A stretch of 64,000 nt of DNA, taken from assembly GCF_003790525.1 (NCBI RefSeq), contig NZ_CP033635.1; one strand, written 5' to 3'. A program made the position numbers and the translations under genes. The DNA is from Escherichia coli. Its GTDB lineage: Bacteria; Pseudomonadota; Gammaproteobacteria; Enterobacterales; Enterobacteriaceae. Under the pieces are notes generated by a model that ran no database searches, was not told the origin of the DNA, and saw nothing but the letters and a program-made list of their open reading frames with translations. Below, piece after piece: positions 5,453 to 20,338 of this stretch; within the stretch, counting starts at the first letter, position 1, and each line of letters starts with the position of its first letter.

Positions 5453-5670
5453 CTCAATCCTTTAGGCTTGCATGTTATCTTCAGCCCAGGATGATTCTTA
5501 AATCAGCTATTTCCGCTGACTCTCTGCTCGCTAAGGATGCTTTTAGGGCATCCTTTCATTTACACTTTTTACGAAATCATGGGATCACTAACAAAATATC
5601 GCTTGTCAGTTATATTGTATGGCAGGAAAGATATGCGACTGATATTACAGATCCCCAAAGTGGAGAGTTT

Positions 5671-6009
5671 ATGACCATTAAAAATAAGATGTTGCTGGGT
5701 GTGCTTTTGCTGGTTACCAGTGCCGCCTGGGCCGCACCAGCCACCGCGGGTTCGACCAATACCTCGGGAATTTCTAAGTATGAGTTAAGTAGTTTCATTG
5801 CTGACTTTAAGCATTTCAAACCAGGTGATACCGTCCCAGAGATGTACCGCACCGATGAGTACAACATTAAGCAGTGGCAGTTACGTAACCTGCCCGCGCC
5901 TGATGCCGGGACGCACTGGACCTATATGGGTGGCGCGTACGTGTTGATCAGCGACACCGACGGTAAAATCATTAAAGCCTACGACGGTGAGATTTTTTAT
6001 CATCGCTAA
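5671..6009 (+). CDS. rcnB: periplasmic protein modulating Ni/Co efflux
   Basis: In-frame ATG at 5671 gives MTIKNKMLLGVLLLVTSAAWA... with a signal peptide; the longer ORF from 5491 is judged an upstream in-frame extension. Confidence 0.8.
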   Translation: MTIKNKMLLGVLLLVTSAAWAAPATAGSTNTSGISKYELSSFIADFKHFKPGDTVPEMYRTDEYNIKQWQLRNLPAPDAGTHWTYMGGAYVLISDTDGKIIKAYDGEIFYHR

Positions 6010-6036
6010 AAAAATCCCCCTCATCATGAGGGGGAA
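6010..6036. terminator. intrinsic terminator hairpin between convergent rcnB and yehA
   Basis: Perfect hairpin CCCCCTCATCATGAGGGGG (6016-6034), flanked by an A-run on the plus strand (a T-run on the minus strand), so it most plausibly ends the minus-strand yeh operon and may also stop rcnB. Confidence 0.6.
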
Positions 6037-6090
6037 ATGCAGACACCTTGTTATTTTTTATTATTAGCCACTTGCTCGTCTTGCTTGTTA

Positions 6091-7125
6091 TTAGTCGTAT
6101 TTCACGTTGATTAATGCGGTTGCCTCCAGTGCGCCAGATTTAACTTTGTTTGTATCGTAGACGTAGTAACTGGCTGTTATCGGAATTGAAACCGTTGTAT
6201 CTGTAAGTTTTGACTTTGCCGCAATTTCTTTTAAATTTGTGTATCCTTTGCTGTTATCAGTGATATTTAAAAGTGTGACTGGCGAACCATTACTTTCAAG
6301 AATAAATCCTACGCCATTATCTTCCGCACCTTTCAGTATTGTGTTGCTGTTGGTTAACAAGTCAGAACTTGATAAATACACCTGCATTTTCCGTGATGTT
6401 TGATTTTGTTGACCTAATAAATTTTTACAACGCAGAATAATATCCCCTTTTTTACTATTTATTGTTGCTTTGTTACCTGTGGCTGGTAATTGTGAAACGG
6501 GAATACCCTCTAAAGTAATTAATAAATCGTCCGGTTTGCAGGTTGTGGTTATCGGGTTGTATGACAAGGTCAGATTAAAGGAATAGACACCTGCATTTTG
6601 TGCCAATGCATTTCTATAGCTATTTACACATGCATCCCATGACTTGCCACCTAATAAACACAGTAGAAATTGTACTGCGGCACTCCCGCGTGTCGATGAT
6701 GAAGCACTGGATAATGTCGCAACACCATTAATCATCACTGAACCGCCGCCCCCCGCAGAAACATTCACTTTTGCATTACTGGCCGCAGGTGTCACCGTTA
6801 CCGAATAACCATTGGTGAAACTGGTCTGATTATTTGACAACGTGATGTTATTTTTATTGGTCCATTCAAAATGTAAATTTAATTTAATGGTATCGTTATA
6901 AAGTCCAACAATAATATCCGACGGGCTCATAGGGGTGATAGTATTTGTACTCACGCATGACGAATCATTAAAATTATGCTCATATGTCGCCATTTGTGTT
7001 TGAGTAAGTGCAAAATCCCCCTGAACAACCAAGTTGTGCTGAACAGATAACTCACTATAACATGCCGCATAGCTCACAGGCATAACCATCATCATTAATA
7101 TAAATAGCATTATGCGAATTTCCAT
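6091..7125 (-). CDS. yehA: fimbrial adhesin-like subunit of a chaperone-usher fimbria
   Basis: 344-aa ORF with signal peptide; last gene of the yehDCBA operon order. Confidence 0.8.
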   Translation of the reverse strand: MEIRIMLFILMMMVMPVSYAACYSELSVQHNLVVQGDFALTQTQMATYEHNFNDSSCVSTNTITPMSPSDIIVGLYNDTIKLNLHFEWTNKNNITLSNNQTSFTNGYSVTVTPAASNAKVNVSAGGGGSVMINGVATLSSASSSTRGSAAVQFLLCLLGGKSWDACVNSYRNALAQNAGVYSFNLTLSYNPITTTCKPDDLLITLEGIPVSQLPATGNKATINSKKGDIILRCKNLLGQQNQTSRKMQVYLSSSDLLTNSNTILKGAEDNGVGFILESNGSPVTLLNITDNSKGYTNLKEIAAKSKLTDTTVSIPITASYYVYDTNKVKSGALEATALINVKYD

Positions 7126-7140
7126 AGAACCACCTGACTA

Positions 7141-9621
7141 TTACTGGCAAATATAATTTCTACTTTCATCAATCTCTTTACCGAAGGTGATTGTGCATGA
7201 AAGTCCTTGTTGCTTATCAATTGCTACATTAACCGATGGCGGTACTTCATTGGTGCGAATAAATAACTGGCTTCCCTGACCGACAACGCCAATATTATGA
7301 CCATGGATATCATTGACTTCATAACCAAACATTAATGGTTGCCCATCCGCTCTTAACGCTTTTATAAACCAGGGCTTGCGCTGATCGGTATCAAAATTAA
7401 CCAGTACAACCGCGCCGCGATAAGGGGCGGCAATTTTCCGGTTGCCACGTAATTCTGCTTCGCTATCGCTTTGCGACACATCCAGCATCAGGTGATTTTC
7501 CCGATAAGGTGTCATTCCGTCGTATACCACCACTCCATTACGGTTTGTTGTGCGATATTTTTGCCCATTGACATAAGCATCTTTAATTCCTGGGGCATTC
7601 ATCACAGCAAACGTTTCGGAAAGACGGTTCGCCAGATTAACGCCACCCGACCAGGCGACAATGCCCCCAGAAACACTGGCTCCAGCCTGTCGATAAGTAC
7701 TCGACTGACTATAACTGCCATTCACTGTCGCAACCGGCGCGTTCCAGGTCAAATTCGCCCCAGCTGTCGTTTCATTTCCCTGATGCTGATAACTCAGGTT
7801 GACCCCATAGTTAAACTGATCCCGGCTTCCAACGGTTCCTGATAATCCCGTATTATTTGAGGCAAACCCCTGATCATCAAACGTCGTTGAGTTAGACATA
7901 TATATTTGCCGACGAGGCGTCGTAACGTCATCACCCCAATCAAAGGGAATCGATATAAAAATATTAAATCGTTTCTCTTCATGATGATTCTCGTCATAAG
8001 CCTGGCTTGCCGCGAGGGTATAGCTTATCCGCCGCCAGTTATTGGAATAACTCAACTGATAATCCTTACTGCTGCCGCTACGTCCCCAGTAATCTCGCCA
8101 TAACGTACTTAAGGACACAGAACCCCAGCCTTCTGGCAATGACTGGCTCATATTGGCAGAAAAGCTATTTTTACGGCCAAAATCGTTCTGGTAATAATCG
8201 GCAATGTCATAGACATCGTTTTCATCACAGCGATAATTATCTTTATTGTTTGCCCAAACGTGATCATTAAATGTCCGGTAATCACGCGATGAATAACGCC
8301 AGGCCGCAAGACCAAAACGCGTCGACGTTTGGCTCACAAATTTGTTGTAGGCAATTTGATAACTTTGCCCGTCAAACACATCGCCGTTGTCTTGTTTACT
8401 ATGCGACTTAGTGGCATCGACGGAAATGGCACCAATGCGTGTATTCCAGCCAGTCCCCAAAGTAAACGCGTAATAATTATTCGCGACCATCGAGCCGCCA
8501 TACAGCGTCAATAAATTATTAAAACCATACTGATAACCCACCTGGACAAATTCACTTTGTTTGCTCGCCCCTTCAATATGGCTACGACCCGCCGCAAAAT
8601 CATATTTCGACACGCCGGGTTGCAGCATATTTGGCACCGCTGCATAAGGCACCAGATAGGTGGTTACCGAACCGTCCGCCTCTTTCACGCTGACATCAAG
8701 ATCTGCTCCACCACCGGCCAACTGCAAATCTGTAATCGCGAACGGGCCAGGAGGAACCTCTTTCTGATAAACGACAAAACCATTCTGTTCAATAGTTACC
8801 AGCGCGTTACTCTGAGCAATCCCCTGCACCCGTGGCGTAAAATTTTGTTTCGAGTTAGGCAACATCTGCATATCACGAAACAACCGCACACCTCTGAAGC
8901 GAACAGAATCAAAAATATCGCTTGATGTGTACATATCACCCACGCGAAGCGTGCCGAGAAGTTGGGCAAATCCACGTTCCAGATACAGGGTATTGCTTTT
9001 CCACACCCCTGGATTGTTATTTGTTTTACTGAAACTGGCATCAGAATGCAGTTGCCACCCCAGTAAATTTAACCCGCTGTTAAAACGTACATATGTACTC
9101 TTGTTATTACCCGACGCTTTATAGTCGCTGTAATACTGACTCAGATAATAAGAGGTATAAAACGCATTAATACCCCGCTCCCAGTTTTCCGGTGGAACAT
9201 AGCCACTTTCCAGTTCTTCCACCCAGGCCTGCGGGACACTGAAATCGAGACGAAAAACCCCGATATCCCAGGTATAGCTCCCACCCTGAACAAGTTGCTC
9301 AAATGTTAAACATTGCTTACCGCTGGCGAAGTTATCGCTATTAATGCCTAACCGCTTGATAACTTCTCTTGATAAACATGTTTCTTGCGGGTTGTCTTTA
9401 ACAATAATCTCATATTTCCCGCGCCATTGCTTATTGACATAAATATCGATGTCATACTGCCCCGGTAAGGGTTGATTATCATCAAGACGAATATTTGCAA
9501 CCTGCTGGTCTTTCATTCCACCTATCATAAAATGGGTATCAAAGGTTTCTTCAGCTGCATAAGCTTCAATGCCGAGCAATAACGCTACGATTGCTGATGC
9601 AAGTGGGGTCATTCTCAACAT
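7141..9621 (-). CDS. yehB: fimbrial outer-membrane usher
   Basis: ~826-aa usher-like protein; start placed at the MLRMTPLASAIVALLLGIEAYA signal peptide. Confidence 0.85.
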   Translation of the reverse strand: MLRMTPLASAIVALLLGIEAYAAEETFDTHFMIGGMKDQQVANIRLDDNQPLPGQYDIDIYVNKQWRGKYEIIVKDNPQETCLSREVIKRLGINSDNFASGKQCLTFEQLVQGGSYTWDIGVFRLDFSVPQAWVEELESGYVPPENWERGINAFYTSYYLSQYYSDYKASGNNKSTYVRFNSGLNLLGWQLHSDASFSKTNNNPGVWKSNTLYLERGFAQLLGTLRVGDMYTSSDIFDSVRFRGVRLFRDMQMLPNSKQNFTPRVQGIAQSNALVTIEQNGFVVYQKEVPPGPFAITDLQLAGGGADLDVSVKEADGSVTTYLVPYAAVPNMLQPGVSKYDFAAGRSHIEGASKQSEFVQVGYQYGFNNLLTLYGGSMVANNYYAFTLGTGWNTRIGAISVDATKSHSKQDNGDVFDGQSYQIAYNKFVSQTSTRFGLAAWRYSSRDYRTFNDHVWANNKDNYRCDENDVYDIADYYQNDFGRKNSFSANMSQSLPEGWGSVSLSTLWRDYWGRSGSSKDYQLSYSNNWRRISYTLAASQAYDENHHEEKRFNIFISIPFDWGDDVTTPRRQIYMSNSTTFDDQGFASNNTGLSGTVGSRDQFNYGVNLSYQHQGNETTAGANLTWNAPVATVNGSYSQSSTYRQAGASVSGGIVAWSGGVNLANRLSETFAVMNAPGIKDAYVNGQKYRTTNRNGVVVYDGMTPYRENHLMLDVSQSDSEAELRGNRKIAAPYRGAVVLVNFDTDQRKPWFIKALRADGQPLMFGYEVNDIHGHNIGVVGQGSQLFIRTNEVPPSVNVAIDKQQGLSCTITFGKEIDESRNYICQ

Positions 9622-9636
9622 AGGCAGCTCCTGCAA

Positions 9637-10311
9637 TTAAATTTTGTCACTAATATAGTTGCCATGGTCATCGATAATGGTCAGATGCCAGTTATTTGCA
9701 TTATTACTTTTGACATTAACACTCTGACTTTCTAAGGGGGCAATCATAATAGTTTCATAATTGACTTTGACATTATTAGCTTTGACATCCGAAATCGTCA
9801 CCCAATTAGCTGAGTCATTTTTTATCACCAAACCATTGCCACTGCGATTTACCAGCAATTTTTTAAATGTCGCTTTATTTACCGGAGCAATACCCGCTGG
9901 CCGGTAAAACAACTTAATTCTGTTTTGCATCGCAAACTTCAGTGCATTCTTACCTTCTTGCTCTGGACTATTTGGTGGAATATCCAGAACATTCAGATAA
10001 AAAATGCTTTCTTTATTAGTGGGCAGTTTATTCGGCATAATTTTGATTTTTACTTGCTGCCCGGAATTTGCCCCTATTTTTGCCACTGGTGGCGTTAACA
10101 TGAAAGGAACCTGAATTTTTTCTGGTGGTAATGACGTATCGCCATCATCAATCCACGCCTGCAGCAGCGAAGAACGGTTTCCCTGGTTCATCAACTGCAC
10201 CATCACTTCTTTATTTTCTGCCGGGTAAATAATGCGCGTCCCGTAGATAACAATTCCGGCATGTGCAGGAAGGACCATAGAAAAAATGAGTAAAGATAAT
10301 AATCCTTTCAT
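9637..10311 (-). CDS. yehC: periplasmic fimbrial chaperone
   Basis: PapD-like chaperone; start placed at MKGLLSLLIFSMVLPAHA. Confidence 0.85.
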   Translation of the reverse strand: MKGLLSLLIFSMVLPAHAGIVIYGTRIIYPAENKEVMVQLMNQGNRSSLLQAWIDDGDTSLPPEKIQVPFMLTPPVAKIGANSGQQVKIKIMPNKLPTNKESIFYLNVLDIPPNSPEQEGKNALKFAMQNRIKLFYRPAGIAPVNKATFKKLLVNRSGNGLVIKNDSANWVTISDVKANNVKVNYETIMIAPLESQSVNVKSNNANNWHLTIIDDHGNYISDKI

Positions 10312-10390
10312 TTTAATGCCTCTTAAATTAAAAGGCCGCCATGGGATAGCGGCCATGTTTATTACCTGGAGAAACTTACAATTTTATTTA

Positions 10391-10933
10391 TTAATCCTGC
10401 GCCACACGCATAACCAGAGAAGATAACACATCACCTGATTGCACTGAGTTATCTGTCAGTTTCAGGTATTTTGCTTTAAACGGAATAGCATATTGACCTT
10501 CCGCTGTTTTATAACTCTCAATGTTAAAAGGTGCAGAAACATCCAGGACATCGCTGTTATCACCTAAATAGAGATAGTAACCCACGGTATCGTTGCTACT
10601 GGCTATCGCCTTATCGTTACCGGTTATTTTATCGTTGGTAATCAACGAGAGTTTTACACCAGCAACTTCTTTCGGGCAGCTAATTTTTAACATGCTGCTG
10701 GTTACACCGACTGCATCATCATAGGTAGAATATTTAGCTTTACCTTCAAAGACACTGGTTGGTACAGTCGGCATATTAATACTTACTGAATCACCACCCG
10801 CTTCGAATTTACACGGAGATTCTGCAATATTCCCCTTAATAGTTAATGTTCCGGTATCAACGTCTGCAGCAAATACTCCAGCGCTCATAAAAAAAGAAGA
10901 AAAGACAGCGGCAGCAATAATTGAACGTTTCAT
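10391..10933 (-). CDS. yehD: major fimbrial subunit
   Basis: 180-aa fimbrial subunit with signal peptide; first gene of the operon, preceded by an AT-rich leader. Confidence 0.85.
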   Translation of the reverse strand: MKRSIIAAAVFSSFFMSAGVFAADVDTGTLTIKGNIAESPCKFEAGGDSVSINMPTVPTSVFEGKAKYSTYDDAVGVTSSMLKISCPKEVAGVKLSLITNDKITGNDKAIASSNDTVGYYLYLGDNSDVLDVSAPFNIESYKTAEGQYAIPFKAKYLKLTDNSVQSGDVLSSLVMRVAQD

Positions 10934-11156
10934 AATATGTTCCTTAATAAAATTTTATTTTTGGTTGTTAAGAGTCTGTATCTCTTGGAAACAAATTTCT
11001 CACATCAAAAAAGTTGCCGCAATGTAAACACATTGTTTTATTGATTTAAAACAAATTAACCATTGCAATATAAATACAAAAAACATTTAAGAGTATTAAC
11101 TATTTATCGCATCTATCAATTAATGTAGATTTATGTAAATGGTATTGTTGATATCA

Positions 11157-11195
11157 ATAAAAAAGCCGAAATCATTTATATAAATGATTTCGGCT
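11157..11195 (-). terminator. intrinsic terminator downstream of yehE
   Basis: Hairpin AGCCGAAATCATTT...AAATGATTTCGGCT followed on the minus strand by TTTTTTAT. Confidence 0.6.
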
Positions 11196-11226
11196 TTCTA
11201 AATGCAATTAAAATCAGGTTGCCAAA

Positions 11227-11508
11227 TTAATCGTAGCGATTTAACACGATTCGACGTTTGCTATCGCTACCTGCAACAACCACTTCTGTCGTTACACCTT
11301 TGACGGGCGAAGAAAACAGATGACGGGTGTCAACATTATACGTTAACTGACCACAATGCTGTTGAGGTTGACCATTAACCATAGCCATACTGCATGTTGG
11401 GGGACTGATCCTGCCATTAATCGCTAATGTGGCAGTCTCTGAAGAGAATGCGGGAGAAGCCAATCCATAGGCAAGAAAAATAATTCCTGACAGCCAATAC
11501 TTATTCAT
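11227..11508 (-). CDS. yehE: small secreted protein of unknown function
   Basis: 93-aa ORF with N-terminal signal peptide; position between the yeh fimbrial operon and mrp. Confidence 0.75.
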   Translation of the reverse strand: MNKYWLSGIIFLAYGLASPAFSSETATLAINGRISPPTCSMAMVNGQPQQHCGQLTYNVDTRHLFSSPVKGVTTEVVVAGSDSKRRIVLNRYD

Positions 11509-11770
11509 TGAACGTTATCCCTGTAGTAAAGGTTATGCCTGGATAGAATGAGTGCATAACAAACTATAGCTGTACATCCACTACACAGCCACGAAGGATG
11601 ATAATGAAGCATTGCCTGTATGATCAATCGACTTTGTAGAGTTTCGGACGAAGGTCCGCAGAATATTCGCAGTATTAAATAAGTGTTCATTAATGCGGCA
11701 AAAACTAATACACCGCATCAATGTAACATCTCTGCGGTGTATGAAGAATAACCAGAATGGTTAATAGGCG

Positions 11771-12880
11771 TTAGACCGCGCGGAAGGAAATCTCGCCTGG
11801 AATGACTTCACCCTGCCAGTAGAGCTGAGCTGCAACGCGGTCAGCCAGCTGGCGGTAGATAGCGGTAAATTCGCTCTCCGGACGGCTGATAACCGTTGGC
11901 GTACCTTTATCGAGATCCTCACGTAAGGAGATGTGTAACGGCATCTGCCCCAGCAGCTGTGTATGGTATTTTTCAGCCAGTTTCTCTGCACCACCGGTAC
12001 CGAAAATCGGTTCATGGTGACCACAGTTACTGCAAATATGCACACTCATGTTCTCGACAATACCGAGCACCGGAACCTCGACTTTCTCGAACATCACAAT
12101 GCCTTTTTTCGCATCGATCAGCGCGATGTCCTGCGGGGTGGTGACCACGACTGCACCGGTTACTGGAATGTTTTGCGCCAGCGTCAATTGAATGTCACCG
12201 GTGCCTGGCGGCATATCAAGCACCAGATAGTCGAGATCCGGCCACAAGGTTTCCTGCAACATCTGCATTAACGCCTTGCTCGCCATCGGTCCACGCCACA
12301 CCATCGCATTGTCGTCAGTGACCAGATAACCAATTGAATTGGTTGCCAGGCCATGAGACATAATCGGTGCCATATGGGTACCGTCCGGCGAAGTTGGACG
12401 CTGATTTTCTGCGCCCAACATTGTTGGGATTGATGGGCCGTAGATATCGGCGTCCAGAATGCCGACTTTCGCCCCTTCTGCCGCCAGCGCCAGTGCCAGG
12501 TTTACCGCCGTGGACGATTTACCCACGCCGCCTTTACCGGAACTCACCGCGATAATGTTCTTCACACCGTTAATTCCCGGCTGATTCTTCACGCGTTTCA
12601 GAGTGGCTATGTTATGCGACAGTTTCCAGTCGATAGCTTTCGCCCCGGTGATGCGCAGCAGTTCGGCGCTACATTGCTCTTTTAACTCTTCGAACGCGCT
12701 ATGCCAGACAAACGGCATAACCAGTTCCACATGCAACGTGTCGTCCATCCAGGCGACATGGTGCAACGCTTTCAGCGTGGTGAGGTTATGCTTCAGGGTT
12801 GGGTGCTGAAAATTGGCCAGTGTCCCGGCGACCATTGCGCGCAAGGCTTCTGGTGATTTGGCCTGGGATTGTTCGTTCAT
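11771..12880 (-). CDS. mrp: Fe-S cluster carrier ATPase (Mrp/ApbC/NBP35 family)
   Basis: Start placed at MNEQSQAKSPEALRAM...; deviant Walker A GKGGVGKSST present. Confidence 0.9.
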   Translation of the reverse strand: MNEQSQAKSPEALRAMVAGTLANFQHPTLKHNLTTLKALHHVAWMDDTLHVELVMPFVWHSAFEELKEQCSAELLRITGAKAIDWKLSHNIATLKRVKNQPGINGVKNIIAVSSGKGGVGKSSTAVNLALALAAEGAKVGILDADIYGPSIPTMLGAENQRPTSPDGTHMAPIMSHGLATNSIGYLVTDDNAMVWRGPMASKALMQMLQETLWPDLDYLVLDMPPGTGDIQLTLAQNIPVTGAVVVTTPQDIALIDAKKGIVMFEKVEVPVLGIVENMSVHICSNCGHHEPIFGTGGAEKLAEKYHTQLLGQMPLHISLREDLDKGTPTVISRPESEFTAIYRQLADRVAAQLYWQGEVIPGEISFRAV

Positions 12881-13011
12881 CCCGACTCCTTTTTTGTATA
12901 GATAAACCATCAGCTGATAGTTTACCTGAAGAATATAGAGAAGTACTTACTTAACATTTTCCCATTTGGTACTATCTAACCCCTTTTCACTATTAAGAAG
13001 TAATGCCTACT

Positions 13012-15045
13012 ATGACTCAAGTCGCGAAGAAAATTCTGGTGACGTGCGCACTGCCGTACGCTAACGGCTCAATCCACCTCGGCCATATGCTGGAGCACAT
13101 CCAGGCTGATGTCTGGGTCCGTTACCAGCGAATGCGCGGCCACGAGGTCAACTTCATCTGCGCCGACGATGCCCACGGTACACCGATCATGCTGAAAGCT
13201 CAGCAGCTTGGTATCACCCCGGAGCAGATGATTGGCGAAATGAGTCAGGAGCATCAGACTGATTTCGCAGGCTTTAACATCAGCTATGACAACTATCACT
13301 CGACGCACAGCGAAGAGAACCGCCAGTTGTCAGAACTTATCTACTCTCGCCTGAAAGAAAACGGTTTTATTAAAAACCGCACCATCTCTCAGCTGTACGA
13401 TCCGGAAAAAGGCATGTTCCTGCCGGACCGTTTTGTGAAAGGCACCTGCCCGAAATGTAAATCCCCGGATCAATACGGCGATAACTGCGAAGTCTGCGGC
13501 GCGACCTACAGCCCGACTGAACTGATCGAGCCGAAATCGGTGGTTTCTGGCGCTACGCCGGTAATGCGTGATTCTGAACACTTCTTCTTTGATCTGCCCT
13601 CTTTCAGCGAAATGTTGCAGGCATGGACCCGCAGCGGTGCGTTGCAGGAGCAGGTGGCAAATAAAATGCAGGAGTGGTTTGAATCTGGCCTGCAACAGTG
13701 GGATATCTCCCGCGACGCCCCTTACTTCGGTTTTGAAATTCCGAACGCGCCGGGCAAATATTTCTACGTCTGGCTGGACGCACCGATTGGCTACATGGGT
13801 TCTTTCAAGAATCTGTGCGACAAGCGCGGCGACAGCGTAAGCTTCGATGAATACTGGAAGAAAGACTCCACCGCCGAGCTGTACCACTTCATCGGTAAAG
13901 ATATTGTTTACTTCCACAGCCTGTTCTGGCCTGCCATGCTGGAAGGCAGCAACTTCCGCAAGCCGTCCAACCTGTTTGTTCATGGCTATGTGACGGTGAA
14001 CGGCGCAAAGATGTCCAAGTCTCGCGGCACCTTTATTAAAGCCAGCACCTGGCTGAATCATTTTGACGCAGACAGCCTGCGTTACTACTACACTGCGAAA
14101 CTCTCTTCGCGCATTGATGATATCGATCTCAACCTGGAAGATTTCGTTCAGCGTGTGAATGCCGATATCGTTAACAAAGTGGTTAACCTGGCCTCCCGTA
14201 ATGCGGGCTTTATCAACAAGCGTTTTGACGGCGTGCTGGCAAGCGAACTGGCTGACCCGCAGTTGTACAAAACCTTCACTGATGCCGCTGAAGTGATTGG
14301 TGAAGCGTGGGAAAGCCGTGAATTTGGTAAAGCCGTGCGCGAAATCATGGCGCTGGCTGATCTGGCTAACCGCTATGTCGATGAACAGGCTCCGTGGGTG
14401 GTGGCGAAACAGGAAGGCCGCGATGCCGACCTGCAGGCAATTTGCTCAATGGGCATCAACCTGTTCCGCGTGCTGATGACTTACCTGAAGCCGGTACTGC
14501 CGAAACTGACCGAGCGTGCAGAAGCATTCCTCAATACGGAACTGACCTGGGATGGTATCCAGCAACCGCTGCTGGGCCACAAAGTGAATCCGTTCAAGGC
14601 GCTGTATAACCGCATCGATATGAGGCAGGTTGAAGCACTGGTGGAAGCCTCTAAAGAAGAAGTAAAAGCCGCTGCCGCGCCGGTAACTGGCCCGCTGGCA
14701 GATGATCCGATTCAGGAAACCATCACCTTTGACGACTTCGCTAAAGTTGACCTGCGCGTGGCGCTGATTGAAAACGCAGAGTTTGTTGAAGGTTCTGACA
14801 AACTGCTGCGCCTGACGCTGGATCTCGGCGGTGAAAAACGCAATGTCTTCTCCGGTATTCGTTCTGCTTACCCGGATCCGCAGGCACTGATTGGTCGTCA
14901 CACCATTATGGTGGCTAACCTGGCACCACGTAAAATGCGCTTCGGTATCTCTGAAGGCATGGTGATGGCTGCCGGTCCTGGCGGGAAAGATATTTTCCTG
15001 CTAAGCCCGGATGCCGGTGCTAAACCGGGTCATCAGGTGAAATAA
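13012..15045 (+). CDS. metG: methionyl-tRNA synthetase
   Basis: 677-aa product starting [29 protein letters not shown] (HIGH motif) with KMSKS motif; divergent from mrp. Confidence 0.95.
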
Positions 15046-16715: not shown

Positions 16716-18054
16716 CATAAGCGCTAACTTAAGGGTTGTGGTATTACGCCTGATATGATTTAACGTGCCGATGAATTACTCTCACGATAACTGGTCAGCA
16801 ATTCTGGCCCATATTGGTAAGCCCGAAGAACTGGATACTTCGGCACGTAATGCCGGGGCTCTAACCCGCCGCCGCGAAATTCGTGATGCTGCAACTCTGC
16901 TACGTCTGGGGCTGGCTTACGGCCCCGGGGGGATGTCATTACGTGAAGTCACTGCATGGGCTCAGCTCCATGACGTTGCAACATTATCTGACGTGGCTCT
17001 CCTGAAGCGGCTGCGGAATGCCGCCGACTGGTTTGGCATACTTGCCGCACAAACACTTGCTGTACGCGCCGCAGTTACGGGTTGTACAAGCGGAAAGAGA
17101 TTGCGTCTTGTCGATGGAACAGCAATCAGTGCGCCCGGGGGCGGCAGCGCTGAATGGCGACTACATATGGGATATGATCCTCATACCTGTCAGTTCACTG
17201 ATTTTGAGCTAACCGACAGCAGAGACGCTGAACGGCTGGACCGATTTGCGCAAACGGCAGACGAGATACGCATTGCTGACCGGGGATTCGGTTCGCGTCC
17301 CGAATGTATCCGCTCACTTGCTTTTGGAGAAGCTGATTATATCGTCCGGGTTCACTGGCGAGGATTGCGCTGGTTAACTGCAGAAGGAATGCGCTTTGAC
17401 ATGATGGGTTTTCTGCGCGGGCTGGATTGCGGTAAGAACGGTGAAACCACTGTAATGATAGGCAATTCAGGTAATAAAAAAGCCGGAGCTCCCTTTCCGG
17501 CACGTCTCATTGCCGTATCACTTCCTCCCGAAAAAGCATTAATCAGTAAAACCCGACTGCTCAGCGAGAATCGTCGAAAAGGACGAGTAGTTCAGGCGGA
17601 AACGCTGGAAGCAGCGGGCCATGTGCTATTGCTAACATCATTACCGGAAGATGAATATTCAGCAGAGCAAGTGGCTGATTGTTACCGTCTGCGATGGCAA
17701 ATTGAACTGGCTTTTAAGCGGCTCAAAAGTTTGCTGCACCTGGATGCTTTGCGTGCAAAGGAACCTGAACTCGCGAAAGCGTGGATATTTGCTAATCTAC
17801 TCGCCGCATTTTTAATTGACGACATAATCCAGCCATCGCTGGATTTCCCCCCCAGAAGTGCCGGATCCGAAAAGAAGAACTAACTCGTTGTGGAGAATAA
17901 CAAAAATGGTCATCTGGAGCTTACAGGTGGCCATTCGTGGGACAGTATCCCTGACAGCCTACAAAACGCAATTGAAGAACGCGAGGCATCGTCTTAACGA
18001 GGCACCGAGGCGTCGCATTCTTCAGATGGTTCAACCCTTAAGTTAGCGCTTATG
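16716..18054 (+). mobile_element. IS186 (IS4 family) insertion sequence, 1339 bp, perfect 23-bp terminal inverted repeats, flanked by a 10-bp target duplication
   Basis: Left end CATAAGCGCTAACTTAAGGGTTG (16716-16738) is the exact inverted complement of the right end (18032-18054); direct repeat AGTAGTCTCC at 16706-16715 and 18055-18064. Confidence 0.85.
16771..17883 (+). CDS. insL: IS186 transposase (DDE, IS4 family)
   Basis: 370-aa product MNYSHDNWSAILAHIGKPEEL... recognised as the IS186 transposase; lies between the terminal inverted repeats. Confidence 0.85.
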   Translation: MNYSHDNWSAILAHIGKPEELDTSARNAGALTRRREIRDAATLLRLGLAYGPGGMSLREVTAWAQLHDVATLSDVALLKRLRNAADWFGILAAQTLAVRAAVTGCTSGKRLRLVDGTAISAPGGGSAEWRLHMGYDPHTCQFTDFELTDSRDAERLDRFAQTADEIRIADRGFGSRPECIRSLAFGEADYIVRVHWRGLRWLTAEGMRFDMMGFLRGLDCGKNGETTVMIGNSGNKKAGAPFPARLIAVSLPPEKALISKTRLLSENRRKGRVVQAETLEAAGHVLLLTSLPEDEYSAEQVADCYRLRWQIELAFKRLKSLLHLDALRAKEPELAKAWIFANLLAAFLIDDIIQPSLDFPPRSAGSEKKN

Positions 18055-20338
18055 AGTAGTCTCCCCTCCCTGGCTTTCGAAAAAGAAAAAATCGCCGATT
18101 CCGGTGCTGGATTTAGCGCCATTAGGCATTGAGCCAATCTGTTATCTGACAGAAGAAATCAGTAATCAACTTTTGGCGAAATATATCTGGTATTCAAAAC
18201 ACATCACGGTTAGCCATGAAGAAAGTACTACCAACCTGTTGGCAAGGATGGGTTTTCAACGACGGATCGCTGGTACATATATTAAAGCTCCCGAAGCGGT
18301 AGTTGAGGCATGGCTAAATGAAGATTATTCAACCTTACTAAGTGAATTTAAGGTGTTTCATTCACCTACCGGGCATTATTGGCAGTTGGGGATTTTGACA
18401 ACATTGCCGCTGGAGAAAGCAGTAAAAGCATGGAATGCCCTTACCCTATCTCCACATACCGATACCGAATACTCCATGTTACATTTTGGACTCAAAGGGT
18501 TACCTGGGTTAGTAAACTCACTTGCACGCTATCCACAAGAAGCCTTGCCCATCACGAATTACTTCGCAGCGAGTGAGCTGGCTCCTGCCGTCGCCCGTGC
18601 CTTCAACAAACTGAAAACGCTACGCGAAAACGCCCGTAGCTGGCTGTTGAAATACCCGGAACATGCCCTTACCGGCCTGCTGCCTGCGGCGCTCGGCAAA
18701 GCCGGTGAAGCACAGGATAACGCCCGCGCTGCCTTGCGTATGCTTACCGAAAACGGTCATCAGCCATTACTGCAAGAAATCGCCCGACGTTATAACCAGC
18801 CGGAAGTAACCGATGCGGTGAACGCTCTGCTTGCGCTCGATCCCTTAGATAATCACCCGACAAAAATCCCCACTCTTCCGGCCTTTTATCAGCCATCGCT
18901 CTGGACGCGCCCGGTATTAAAAGCAAATGCCCAATCACTGCCAGATAGCGCCCTCCTCCACCTCGGTGAAATGCTCCGCTTCCCTCAGGAAGAGGCTCTG
19001 TATCCGGGATTATTGCAGGTGAAAGACGTCTGTTCCGCCGACTCACTGGCGGGATTTGCCTGGGATCTGTTTACCGCCTGGCAGACCGCTGGCGCGCCGT
19101 CGAAAGAGAGTTGGGCGTTCACTGCGTTAGGCGTTCTCGGTAACGATGACACCGCCCGCAAACTGACGCCATTAATACGCGCCTGGCCTGGTGAATCCCA
19201 GCATAAACGCGCCACCGTTGGGTTGGATATTCTCGCTGCTATCGGTAGTGATATCGCCCTTATGCAGCTTAACGGCATCGCCCAGAAACTGAAATTCAAA
19301 GCATTACAGGAGCGGGCAAAAGAAAAAATTGCCGACATTGCCGAGAGCCGCGAACTCACGGTGGCGGAGCTTGAAGATCGGTTAGCACCGGATCTCGGTC
19401 TGGATGATAACGGTTCGCTGCTGCTGGATTTTGGCCCACGGCAGTTCACCGTCAGCTTTGATGAAACCTTAAAACCGTTTGTGCGTGATGTTTCCGGCAG
19501 CCGCCTGAAAGACCTGCCCAAACCGAACAAAAGCGATGATGAAACGCGGGCGAACGATGCGGTTAACCGCTACAAATTGCTGAAAAAAGATGCGCGTACC
19601 ATCGCCGCCCAGCAGGTAGCAAGGCTGGAATCCGCCATGTGCCTGCGCCGCCGCTGGTCGCTGGAAAACTTCCAGCTCTTCCTGGTTGAGCATCCGCTGG
19701 TTCGTCACTTAACCCGCCGTCTGATTTGGGGCGTTTATAGCGCCGAAAACCAGCTACTGGCTTGCTTTCGCGTAGCAGAAGATAACAGCTCCAGCACCGC
19801 TGACGATGATCTTTTCACCCTGCCGGAAGGCGATATCTCTATCGGCACTCCTCACGTTCTGGAAATATCACCAACGGATGCTGCCGCCTTTGGTCAGCTT
19901 TTTGCCGACTACGAACTGCTACCACCGTTCCGCCAGCTCGACCGTAACAGCTACGCCCTGACAGAAGCCGAGCGCAATGCCAGTGAACTGACCCGCTGGG
20001 CAGGCAGAAAATGCCCGAGTGGTCGGGTCATGGGGCTGGCGAATAAAGGCTGGATAAAGGGCGAACCACAGGATGGAGGCTGGATCGGATGGATGATCAA
20101 ACCTTTGGGTCGCTGGTCGTTAATCATGGAAATCGATGAAGGCTTTGCGGTAGGCATGTCGCCAGCCGAACTCAGCGCTGAGCAGCTCTTAAGCAAGCTG
20201 TGGCTATGGGAAGGCAAAGCAGAAAGATATGGCTGGGGGAGTAATTCAACACAGGAAGCGCAGTTCTCCGTAATCGATGCCATCACCGCCAGCGAGCTAA
20301 TTAACGATATTGAAGCCCTGTTTGAATAAGGAAAGAGC

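What the first reader, a model, noticed from the sequence alone, without database searches (positions are those of the whole stretch)
10934..11226. AT-rich leader of the cryptic yehDCBA chaperone-usher fimbrial operon
The ~290 bp upstream of yehD is extremely AT-rich with A/T tracts, typical of H-NS-silenced fimbrial promoters. The operon (major subunit, chaperone, usher, adhesin-like subunit) appears intact, so it is a potentially expressible cryptic adhesin.
Basis: partly seen in the sequence, partly recalled or inferred. Interest (0 to 1): 0.2.

Follow-up and report, generated by a model that had tools for sequence, protein, structure and literature searches.

The report
Known H-NS-silenced yehD fimbrial promoter region

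Summary
Confirmed, and already known. Window 10934-11226 is the 293-bp gap between yehE (stop at 11227) and yehD (ATG at 10933) on the minus strand of an E. coli chromosome. It differs from K-12 at 2 positions. Its GC is 24.6% against 50.5% for the window, the lowest 0.07% of equal-sized windows. yehD, yehC, yehB and yehA are full length with no frameshifts.

Published K-12 work covers the interpretation:
- H-NS binds this region, and it is a catalogued "promoter island".
- The locus lies in a silenced protein-occupancy domain.
- The operon is cryptic but functional when forced.
- SlyA and BolA overproduction raise its transcripts.
- ArcA represses it; the published ArcA site is found exactly at window 11011-11053.

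The region is not a uniform leader. It has three parts:
1. The yehE intrinsic terminator (11159-11199), supported by compensatory changes.
2. An 85-bp distal stretch that evolves at about the rate of third codon positions.
3. A 111-bp core (10964-11074), 93% identical across Escherichia. Its peak at 11013-11057 is 82-93% identical to Citrobacter and coincides with the ArcA site.

A/T tracts are no more frequent than the composition predicts. I found no invertible switch and no GATC sites. The transcription start is still unmapped.

The parts
10934..11226 (-). yehE-yehD intergenic region (the finding): 293 bp, 24.6% GC
   Evidence: It differs from K-12 at 2 positions: one substitution and one extra A.
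11159..11199 (-). yehE intrinsic terminator. The GC-anchored stem is 11165-11194, and it contains a perfect 36-nt palindrome at 11162-11197. The T6 run is at 11159-11164.
   Evidence: RNA fold gives an 18-bp stem with a z-score of -5.85 against shuffles. The palindrome matches itself on the opposite strand. Compensatory changes occur in 4 of 18 pairs within Escherichia and in 8 of 18 pairs when Citrobacter is added. The simple terminator scan did not flag it, probably because the upstream A-run pairs with the T-run; that reason is my inference.
11075..11158 (-). Distal variable AT-rich stretch (about 21% GC), fast-evolving. This is the likeliest part to act as a generic H-NS binding platform.
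   Evidence: Mean pairwise identity is 69% across 11 Escherichia sequences. Third codon positions of yehD and yehE are 70% and 74%. The best-scoring sigma-70-like site of this strain (TTGATA 11119 / AATACT 11097) lies here but is not conserved.
10964..11074 (-). Conserved regulatory core (111 bp, 28% GC)
   Evidence: Mean pairwise identity is 93% across Escherichia, above the 86% for all sites of the yehD coding sequence. The cross-genus peak at 11013-11057 is 82-93% identical between Escherichia and Citrobacter-type loci.
11011..11053 (+). Published ArcA-P binding site with three direct repeats
   Evidence: The sequence AAGTTGCCGCAATGTAAACACATTGTTTTATTGATTTAAAACA, from the supplement of PMC3798270, matches the window exactly. 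That paper reports yehDCBA 5.4-fold higher in an arcA mutant. An ArcA genomic SELEX study also lists YehD (PMC6134199).
11021..11050 (-). Candidate core promoter (inference only): -35 TTTAAA at 11050-11045, 18-bp spacer, -10 TACATT at 11026-11021
   Evidence: Position-weight scan. The -10 hexamer is invariant in 11 of 11 Escherichia sequences and the -35 in 10 of 11. Both are kept in the Citrobacter-type loci. The candidate lies inside the ArcA site. No transcription start has been mapped; the PMC3798270 supplement says 'no TSS'.
10994..11022 (-). Alternative candidate promoter (inference only): -35 TTGCGG at 11022-11017, 17-bp spacer, extended -10 TGaGAAATT at 11002-10994
   Evidence: Invariant in 11 of 11 Escherichia sequences, but both hexamers are weak (3 of 6 matches each).
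10940..10945 (-). yehD ribosome-binding site AAGGAA, ending 6 nt upstream of the ATG
   Evidence: Read directly. AAGGA is invariant in all aligned sequences.
10391..10933 (-). yehD, major fimbrial subunit (180 aa)
   Evidence: Identical to the K-12 protein. Pfam Fimbrial domain. Best NCBIfam match is 'fimbrial protein YehD', at 113 bits, below that model's curated cut-off of 136.
9637..10311 (-). yehC, periplasmic chaperone (224 aa)
   Evidence: Identical to the K-12 protein. Pfam PapD_N and PapD_C.
7141..9621 (-). yehB, outer-membrane usher (826 aa)
   Evidence: Full length, with 11 missense differences from K-12. Pfam PapC_N, Usher and PapC_C.
6091..7125 (-). yehA, adhesin-like two-domain subunit (344 aa)
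   Evidence: Full length, with 7 missense differences from K-12. Pfam Fimbrial domain at residues 184-344.
11227..11508 (-). yehE, a DUF2574 protein (93 aa); the upstream neighbour whose terminator occupies the distal end of the finding
   Evidence: Identical to the K-12 protein. Pfam DUF2574, E = 1.6e-52. Linked to yehD in Citrobacter in the same orientation and in Superficieibacter in the divergent orientation.

Best explanation
The region is the regulatory gap in front of the ancestral Yeh (gamma-4, Stc-type) chaperone-usher fimbrial operon of E. coli.

Read in the direction of transcription (minus strand), it has four parts:
1. The intrinsic terminator that ends yehE.
2. About 85 bp of very AT-rich, freely evolving DNA.
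3. A 111-bp core conserved across Escherichia and, at its centre, into Citrobacter.
4. The yehD ribosome-binding site.

The proposed mechanism is as follows.
- H-NS coats the AT-rich gap and the low-GC operon (42% GC) and keeps transcription low. Published ChIP in K-12 shows the binding; I infer it for this strain from near-identity.
- ArcA-P binds three direct repeats at 11011-11053 and adds repression under anaerobic conditions. The site and the derepression are published for K-12; here I only confirmed the exact site sequence. That the site overlaps the promoter is my inference.
- Overproduced SlyA and BolA raise the transcript. The SlyA authors suggest H-NS antagonism for the cryptic fimbrial operons. 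Direct binding of SlyA at yehD was not among the promoters they tested.
- The promoter most likely lies in the conserved core. The best conserved candidate is TTTAAA-18-TACATT at 11050-11021. This is inference, because no start site is mapped.

The operon downstream is intact, so fimbriae can be made once silencing is relieved.
For: Identity and anatomy
- The window matches the K-12 locus rcnB-yehABCD-yehE-apbC-metG.
- GC is 24.6%, the lowest 0.07% of equal-sized windows.
- The operon is intact with the expected domains.
- The terminator hairpin has z = -5.85 and compensatory changes in 8 of 18 pairs.
- Pairwise identity is 69% in the distal zone and 93% in the core, against 70% at yehD third codon positions.
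- The Citrobacter comparison peaks at 11013-11057.

Published function in K-12
- H-NS binding and the SlyA response (PMC5797941).
- Promoter-island listing with H-NS binding (PMC3661553).
- Static silenced protein-occupancy domain (bioRxiv 10.1101/2024.06.20.599902).
- ArcA site and 5.4-fold derepression (PMC3798270; exact match), plus an ArcA genomic SELEX listing (PMC6134199).
- BolA overproduction raises yehD and yehC (PMC4337573).
- Yeh fimbriae were seen by electron microscopy when expressed from a tet promoter (PMC7098969).
- Yeh is core-associated and intact in 92% of the strains surveyed (PMC3559732).
Against: - No H-NS, ArcA or expression data exist for this strain. Everything functional is carried over from K-12 by sequence identity.
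- The ArcA ChIP-seq peak was found in only one of two replicates.
- The H-NS high-affinity motif TCGATAAATT has only three 8-of-10 matches in the gap. The window-wide count (79) is not clearly above chance (65 +/- 7).
- A/T tracts and sigma-70-like sites are no more frequent than the composition predicts.
- Loss of the silenced occupancy domain does not by itself induce yehDCBA. A plasmid yehD-GFP fusion was weak and was not among the four reporters chosen for a robust SlyA response (PMC7417354). Relief of H-NS alone is therefore probably not sufficient.
- The promoter position is unmapped.
Confidence: 0.85

Rival explanations
1. The gap is an internal spacer of a five-gene yehEDCBA operon. 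On this reading yehD is transcribed mainly by read-through from a promoter upstream of yehE, and the hairpin acts as a leaky attenuator that sets the yehE:yehD ratio rather than as an operon boundary.
For: - One group refers to the locus as 'yehEDCBA'.
- The O157:H7 Yeh expression clone that made visible fimbriae started at the yehE ATG, spanning ECs2914-2918.
- yehE and yehD are adjacent and co-oriented in Escherichia and Citrobacter.
- One Citrobacter hairpin lacks a good T-run.
Against: - The hairpin is a canonical strong terminator, with a 13-bp GC-anchored stem plus T6, kept by compensatory changes.
- A 111-bp conserved block with an ArcA site lies downstream of it. That fits an independent promoter better than a spacer.
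- In Superficieibacter the yehE homologue points away from yehD, yet parts of the core motif are kept in front of yehD.
- The ArcA and SlyA studies treat yehDCBA as the unit.
- In CFT073 an IS200C sits between the terminator and the core.
Confidence: 0.2
2. The region is a phase-variation switch. It would be either an invertible promoter segment flanked by the 15-nt inverted repeats at 11036-11050 and 11148-11162 (fimS-like), or a Dam/Lrp methylation switch (pap-like).
For: - A 15-nt, 87% complementary inverted repeat flanks a 97-bp segment that holds a promoter-like site.
- Phase variation of this kind is well established for the fim and pap fimbrial operons (background knowledge).
Against: - A query built with the segment inverted found no genome among 5,426 with the inverted form. 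The best match was 100% coverage at only 82% identity, which is the uninverted allele forced through.
- One arm and most of the segment lie in the non-conserved distal zone.
- No recombinase gene is annotated in the 13.8 kb around the locus in K-12.
- There are no GATC sites in the gap.
Confidence: 0.02
3. The AT-richness is a passive by-product of weak selection and mutational bias in a spacer, with no regulatory content.
For: - The distal 85 bp evolve at about the rate of third codon positions.
- Motif and tract counts do not exceed what the composition predicts.
Against: - The core is 93% conserved across the genus and up to 93% identical to Citrobacter, well above third codon positions.
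- Low GC (25-33%) is kept in the Citrobacter-type gaps.
- Protein binding in K-12 is published.
Confidence: 0.05
4. The gap hides an unannotated small RNA or small protein gene that accounts for the conserved block.
For: - Six ORFs of 20-35 codons overlap the gap.
- The core is more conserved than the flanking genes.
Against: - Rfam gives only sub-threshold chance hits, all on the palindrome.
- The longest ORF (10937-11044, plus strand) loses its start codon in strain E69 and crosses 1-2-nt indels in the ribosome-binding-site spacer.
- The two substitutions in the one small candidate stem of the core (AAGAG/CTCTT) break pairs rather than compensate.
Confidence: 0.03

Closest known systems
The yehD/yehE intergenic region of E. 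coli K-12 MG1655 ('promoter island' 2190229_357; regulatory region of yehDCBA)
   Same: It is the same locus with the same neighbours. The 293-bp gap differs by one substitution and one extra A. The ArcA site sequence is identical.
   Different: The host is not K-12. This strain carries an IS4-family insertion at 16716-18055 and an accessory gene at about 62 kb. YehB has 11 and YehA 7 amino-acid differences from K-12.
Other cryptic, H-NS-repressed chaperone-usher operon promoters of E. coli (yad, elf/ycb, sfm)
   Same: All have AT-rich upstream regions and poor expression in the laboratory. All are repressed by H-NS and raised by SlyA overproduction. The yadN and sfmA upstream regions are also described as promoter islands in the same paper.
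   Different: The SlyA paper showed SlyA binding by gel shift at the shared ssuE-elfA intergenic region, but yehD was not among the promoters tested. The yeh gap additionally carries a published ArcA site. It begins with the terminator of a co-oriented upstream gene rather than sharing a divergent promoter region with a neighbour.
Salmonella stc and Citrobacter yeh-type operons (orthologous gamma-4 fimbriae at the same locus)
   Same: Wurpel et al. report the same locus in Escherichia, Salmonella and Citrobacter (PMC3559732). In Citrobacter I confirmed the order apbC-yehE-gap-yehD-yehC-yehB, a 275-bp gap with 29% GC, a terminator hairpin and the conserved central motif.
   Different: The distal zone and the hairpin sequence are unrelated in primary sequence. 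I could not retrieve Salmonella sequence with the searches available, so that comparison is untested.
fimS and pap regulatory regions (phase-variable fimbrial switches)
   Same: All are AT-rich upstream regions of chaperone-usher operons. H-NS acting on fim and pap is background knowledge, not tested here.
   Different: Here there is no recombinase, no inverted allele in 5,426 genomes and no GATC site. This region does not work like either switch.

Membership tests
Chaperone-usher fimbrial operon (Yeh type) | Major pilin subunit with a Fimbrial domain, placed first in the operon | tested here: met
   YehD has Pfam PF00419 above the curated threshold. Its best NCBIfam match is 'fimbrial protein YehD', at 113 bits, below that model's cut-off of 136. 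It is 100% identical to K-12 YehD.
Chaperone-usher fimbrial operon (Yeh type) | PapD-like periplasmic chaperone and PapC-like usher, both full length | tested here: met
   YehC has PapD_N and PapD_C. YehB has PapC_N, Usher (E = 1e-196) and PapC_C. Both match K-12 lengths with no frameshift.
Chaperone-usher fimbrial operon (Yeh type) | Fixed chromosomal position between rcnB and yehE-apbC-metG | tested here: met
   The annotated K-12 region aligns colinearly with the window at 99.3% identity.
Chaperone-usher fimbrial operon (Yeh type) | Usher falls in the gamma-4 clade | not tested
   Taken from PMC7098969. No usher tree was built here.
H-NS-silenced (xenogeneic-silencing type) promoter region | AT content far above the genome average | tested here: met
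   24.6% GC against 50.5% for the window, the lowest 0.07% of equal-sized windows. The operon itself has 42% GC.
H-NS-silenced (xenogeneic-silencing type) promoter region | H-NS occupancy in vivo | not testable with these tools
   Published for K-12: listed as H-NS-bound in the Kahramanoglou and Oshima data sets. Carried over to this strain by the near-identical sequence.
H-NS-silenced (xenogeneic-silencing type) promoter region | Derepression when hns is removed | not testable with these tools
   Korea et al. 2010, as summarised in PMC5797941. The original paper is not in the held library.
H-NS-silenced (xenogeneic-silencing type) promoter region | High-affinity nucleation motif TCGATAAATT | tested here: inconclusive
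   Three 8-of-10 matches lie in or at the edge of the gap (11101, 11112, 11225) and none is better. The window-wide count of 79 compares with 65 +/- 7 by chance.
H-NS-silenced (xenogeneic-silencing type) promoter region | Excess of A/T tracts beyond what composition gives | tested here: not met
   Nine tracts observed against 7.2 +/- 2.3 in shuffles. This is not a strict requirement for H-NS binding.
Promoter island (Panyukov and Ozoline) | At least 8 PlatProm-predicted start points per 100 bp over at least 300 bp | not testable with these tools
   The locus is listed as island 2190229_357, yehD(-)/yehE(-). PlatProm is not available here. The simple hexamer scan found 3 sites against 3.9 +/- 2.0 in composition-matched shuffles.
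Rho-independent terminator (for the hairpin at 11159-11199) | Stable stem-loop directly followed by a T-run, just downstream of a stop codon on the same strand | tested here: met
   The hairpin core starts 32 nt after the yehE stop codon. It has a 13-bp GC-anchored stem (18 bp in all), a 4-nt loop and a T6 run. The z-score is -5.85. Compensatory changes occur in 8 of 18 pairs. Termination itself was not assayed.
ArcA-P operator | Direct repeats matching the ArcA box, with ArcA occupancy and an arcA-dependent expression change | tested here: met
   The sequence criterion is met by an exact match to the published 43-bp site. Occupancy (one replicate only) and the 5.4-fold derepression are published for K-12, not tested here.
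Invertible fimbrial switch (fimS type) | Both orientations occur in natural genomes and a site-specific recombinase is nearby | tested here: not met
   No inverted allele in 5,426 genomes. No recombinase is annotated in the 13.8-kb neighbourhood.
Dam/Lrp methylation switch (pap type) | Two GATC sites within the regulatory region | tested here: not met
   No GATC between 10934 and 11226.

The most novel reading that the evidence does not exclude
The 111-bp core (10964-11074) is more conserved than the genes around it. Its centre survives into Citrobacter, and partly into Superficieibacter. Only part of it is explained by the published ArcA site. The stretch downstream of that site (about 10964-11010, GATGTGAGAAATTTGTTTCCAAGAGATACAGACTCTTAACAA) is 92-97% identical across Escherichia in 20-column windows and has no assigned function. 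It could hold the operator of a dedicated, still unknown regulator, or a 5'-leader element, that supplies the natural inducing signal for Yeh fimbriae. That signal has never been identified.
Probability: 0.3. Interest if true: 0.3.

Novelty: already known. Interest (0 to 1): 0.1.

Why it matters
It matters little beyond correct annotation. The locus, its silencing by H-NS, its ArcA site and the functionality of the operon are all published for K-12, and this strain's gap differs from K-12 at only 2 positions.

The modest added value is an anatomical map. It separates the yehE terminator and a freely evolving AT-rich stretch from a strongly conserved core. That map tells anyone looking for the natural inducing signal of Yeh fimbriae which roughly 110 bp to mutate or use as bait.

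Tried and rejected
- **Rfam, permissive scan of 5500-13500.** Only sub-threshold chance hits, to eukaryotic miRNA and snoRNA models on the palindrome.
- **Second copy per genome.** The search reported a median of 2 places per genome. This is the 36-nt perfect palindrome matching itself on the opposite strand, not a repeat elsewhere.
- **Invertible-switch hypothesis.** Tested with an artificial inverted query; no inverted allele was found.
- **Pap-like Dam switch.** No GATC sites.
- **Small ORFs in the gap.** Not conserved.
- **H-NS motif search.** Uninformative.
- **Highest-scoring sigma-70-like site in this strain (11119/11097).** Rejected as the main promoter because it is lost in the other Escherichia lineages compared.
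- **YehE against solved structures.** No hit. YehE against YehD by BLASTP was not significant.
- **Primary papers.** Low et al. 2006, Korea et al. 2010 and Thomason et al. 2015 are not in the held library. No mapped yehD start site was found in the literature search.
- **Salmonella stc upstream sequence.** Neither the genome scan nor the protein search reached Salmonella.

Full report
**What the sequence shows**

The window is an E. coli chromosome segment. An 801-bp query around the finding matches 5,413 of 5,426 complete E. coli genomes. It is 99.8% identical to K-12 derivatives, and the annotated features under the match are yehE and yehD.

The K-12 annotation gives the order rcnR-rcnA-rcnB, then yehA-yehB-yehC-yehD-yehE-apbC on the opposite strand, then metG. 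The window aligns colinearly with it at 99.3%.

The finding's coordinates (10934-11226) are exactly the gap between the yehD start codon (10933, minus strand) and the yehE stop codon (11227).

**Checking the observation**

- The gap is 293 bp with 24.6% GC, against 50.5% for the window. Only 0.07% of 293-nt windows are as low.
- The adjacent yehE-apbC gap has 40% GC, and the yehABCD genes have 39-45%.
- The only comparable trough lies at about 61.9 kb. It sits inside an accessory pentapeptide-repeat gene present in 1,128 of 5,426 genomes.
Shuffles of the same composition give 7.2 +/- 2.3, so they add nothing beyond the composition.
- The operon is intact. YehD and YehC are identical to K-12. 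YehB and YehA have the K-12 length with 11 and 7 missense differences. The Pfam domains are those of a pilin, a PapD-type chaperone, a PapC-type usher and a two-domain adhesin-like subunit.

**Anatomy of the gap**

I aligned the gap from 11 Escherichia sequences. These were this window, K-12, a CFT073-like allele (MS8345), O157:H7, further E. coli, E. albertii, E. whittamii and two unnamed Escherichia species. The sequences came, and the alignment is. It shows that the gap is not a uniform leader.

1. **The yehE terminator (11159-11199).** The end next to yehE holds a hairpin: a 13-bp GC-anchored stem (18 bp with the flanking A-U pairs), a 4-nt loop and a T6 run.
   - It folds far better than shuffled sequence (z = -5.85).
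   - It contains a perfect 36-nt palindrome. That palindrome explains why the searches reported two "places" per genome.
   - Compensatory substitutions keep it paired: 4 of 18 pairs within Escherichia and 8 of 18 once Citrobacter is added.
   - The first 67 bases of the "leader" therefore belong to the upstream gene.
2. **The distal variable stretch (11075-11158).** It has about 21% GC and 69% mean pairwise identity. Third codon positions of yehD and yehE are 70% and 74%. This stretch appears to evolve freely while staying AT-rich.
3. **The conserved core (10964-11074).** It is 93% identical on average, above the 86% for all sites of the yehD coding sequence.

I then recovered three Citrobacter-type loci, whose YehD is 64-67% identical. 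Two of them show the full order apbC-yehE-gap-yehD-yehC-yehB; the third contig is cut within yehE. Their gaps have 25-33% GC and each has a terminator hairpin of unrelated sequence. A conservation peak of 82-93% falls at window 11013-11057.

A Superficieibacter genome (YehD 61% identical) has its yehE homologue in the divergent orientation. It still keeps TTTAAATCAATAAAACA, ACATTG and CTTAACAA in front of yehD.

**What is already published**

- Curran et al. list yehDCBA as a cryptic chaperone-usher operon raised 3.6-fold by SlyA overproduction. They mark it as H-NS-bound in the Kahramanoglou and Oshima data sets (PMC5797941).
- The same paper summarises Korea et al. 2010: seven such operons are poorly expressed, six are functional when driven constitutively, yeh expression enhances biofilm formation, and H-NS represses it.
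- Panyukov and Ozoline list "2190229_357 yehD(-)/yehE(-)" among 78 promoter islands. These are regions with dense predicted start points that bind RNA polymerase and H-NS yet give almost no full-length transcript (PMC3661553).
- A 2024 preprint places yehEDCBA in a static silenced protein-occupancy domain. It notes that loss of the domain does not by itself induce yehDCBA.
- Park et al. report yehDCBA 5.4-fold derepressed in an arcA mutant. They give a 43-bp ArcA-P site with three direct repeats and state "no TSS" (PMC3798270 supplement). That site matches the window exactly at 11011-11053, which is the cross-genus conservation peak. An independent ArcA genomic SELEX study also lists YehD.
- BolA overproduction raises yehD and yehC.
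- Wurpel et al. class Yeh as core-associated, intact in 92% of strains, and orthologous to Salmonella Stc at the same locus.
- Yeh fimbriae of O157:H7 were visualised when expressed from a tet promoter. Low et al. 2006 are cited there for native promoter activity in static LB, higher at 28 C.
- A plasmid yehD-GFP fusion was weak in wild type and was not among the four reporters chosen for a robust SlyA response.

**How it most likely works**

H-NS coats the AT-rich gap and the low-GC operon. This is shown for K-12 and inferred here from near-identity.

ArcA-P adds repression through the site at 11011-11053. The site and the effect are published. That it overlaps the promoter is my inference.

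A simple sigma-70 weight-matrix scan finds only two candidates conserved across Escherichia:
- TTTAAA-18-TACATT at 11050-11021, which lies inside the ArcA site and is kept in Citrobacter.
- TTGCGG-17-TGaGAAATT at 11022-10994.

The best-scoring site in this strain (11119/11097) lies in the variable zone and is lost in the other Escherichia lineages compared. I put only about 35% on the first candidate, because no start site is mapped and promoter-like hexamers are no commoner here than the composition predicts.

**Rivals**

- **Five-gene yehEDCBA unit with the hairpin as attenuator.** This is not excluded as a contributing route. The strong, covarying terminator, the conserved core downstream of it and the divergent yehE in Superficieibacter argue for an independent yehD promoter.
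- **Invertible switch.** Tested and rejected. A query with the 97-bp segment between the 15-nt inverted repeats flipped found no inverted allele in 5,426 genomes, and no recombinase is nearby.
- **Pap-like Dam switch.** Excluded, because there are no GATC sites.
- **Hidden RNA or small ORF.** No support.

**Verdict**

The distal 67 nt are the yehE terminator. The tracts are not an independent signal. ArcA, and probably further inputs, act besides H-NS.

Everything essential is already in the literature, so novelty is "already known" and interest is low. The one open point is what the unassigned, highly conserved part of the core (about 10964-11010) does.

Noticed in passing
L002 about 1690-2400 (CFT073); insertion point corresponds to window about 11158/11159: In CFT073 an IS200C element (tnpA annotated) sits between the T-run of the yehE terminator and the yehD regulatory DNA, lengthening the gap to 1,005 bp. 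At most 43 of 5,326 genomes have a split or partial gap, so the insertion is rare.
   Followed up: partly
window 16716-18055: This 1.34-kb segment is absent from K-12. It encodes a 372-aa IS4-family transposase (ORF 16765-17883) and lies in the region K-12 annotates as a frameshifted DUF4132 pseudogene. The two alignment blocks overlap by 11 bp, which looks like a target-site duplication (IS186-like).
   Followed up: partly
window 61500-63900: This is the only other stretch as AT-rich as the finding (minimum 23.9% GC at 61914-62206). It lies in an accessory pentapeptide-repeat protein gene found in only 1,128 of 5,426 E. coli genomes and absent from K-12.
   Followed up: partly
window 11227-11508 (yehE): YehE (DUF2574, 93 aa) opens with a signal-peptide-like N-terminus (my reading, not tested) followed by 'TATLAINGRISPPTC', which resembles the N-terminal strand of fimbrial subunits. 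The DUF2574 model weakly hits YehD residues 1-44 (E = 7.8e-4). The gene stays linked to yehD in Citrobacter and, in divergent orientation, in Superficieibacter. It has no relative among solved structures and its role is unknown.
   Followed up: partly
L010 (O157:H7) compared with L008 and L006: The O157:H7 yeh allele is strongly diverged from K-12: YehE 70% and YehD 86% amino-acid identity, gap 80%. By eye its gap is almost identical to that of Escherichia sp. E1V33 and close to E. whittamii. This suggests an old allelic lineage or exchange between lineages.
   Followed up: no
window 11559-11600 and 11194-11226: A few E. coli genomes keep only short perfect fragments of the locus: 42 nt in NZ_CM132250.1 and 33 nt in NZ_CM184323.1. 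This suggests that they carry deletions removing yeh.
   Followed up: no
window 11566-11592 (minus strand) and 11598-11627: The yehE-apbC gap holds a terminator-like hairpin and, just upstream of it, a sigma-70-like site (TTGATC-18-TATCAT). These are possibly the apbC terminator and the yehE promoter.
   Followed up: no
protein hits P0009-P0092: Shigella flexneri carries many 174-aa and shorter YehD variants. In S. flexneri 2457T yehC and yehA are annotated as pseudogenes (PMC6854044), so the operon is decaying in that lineage.
   Followed up: no
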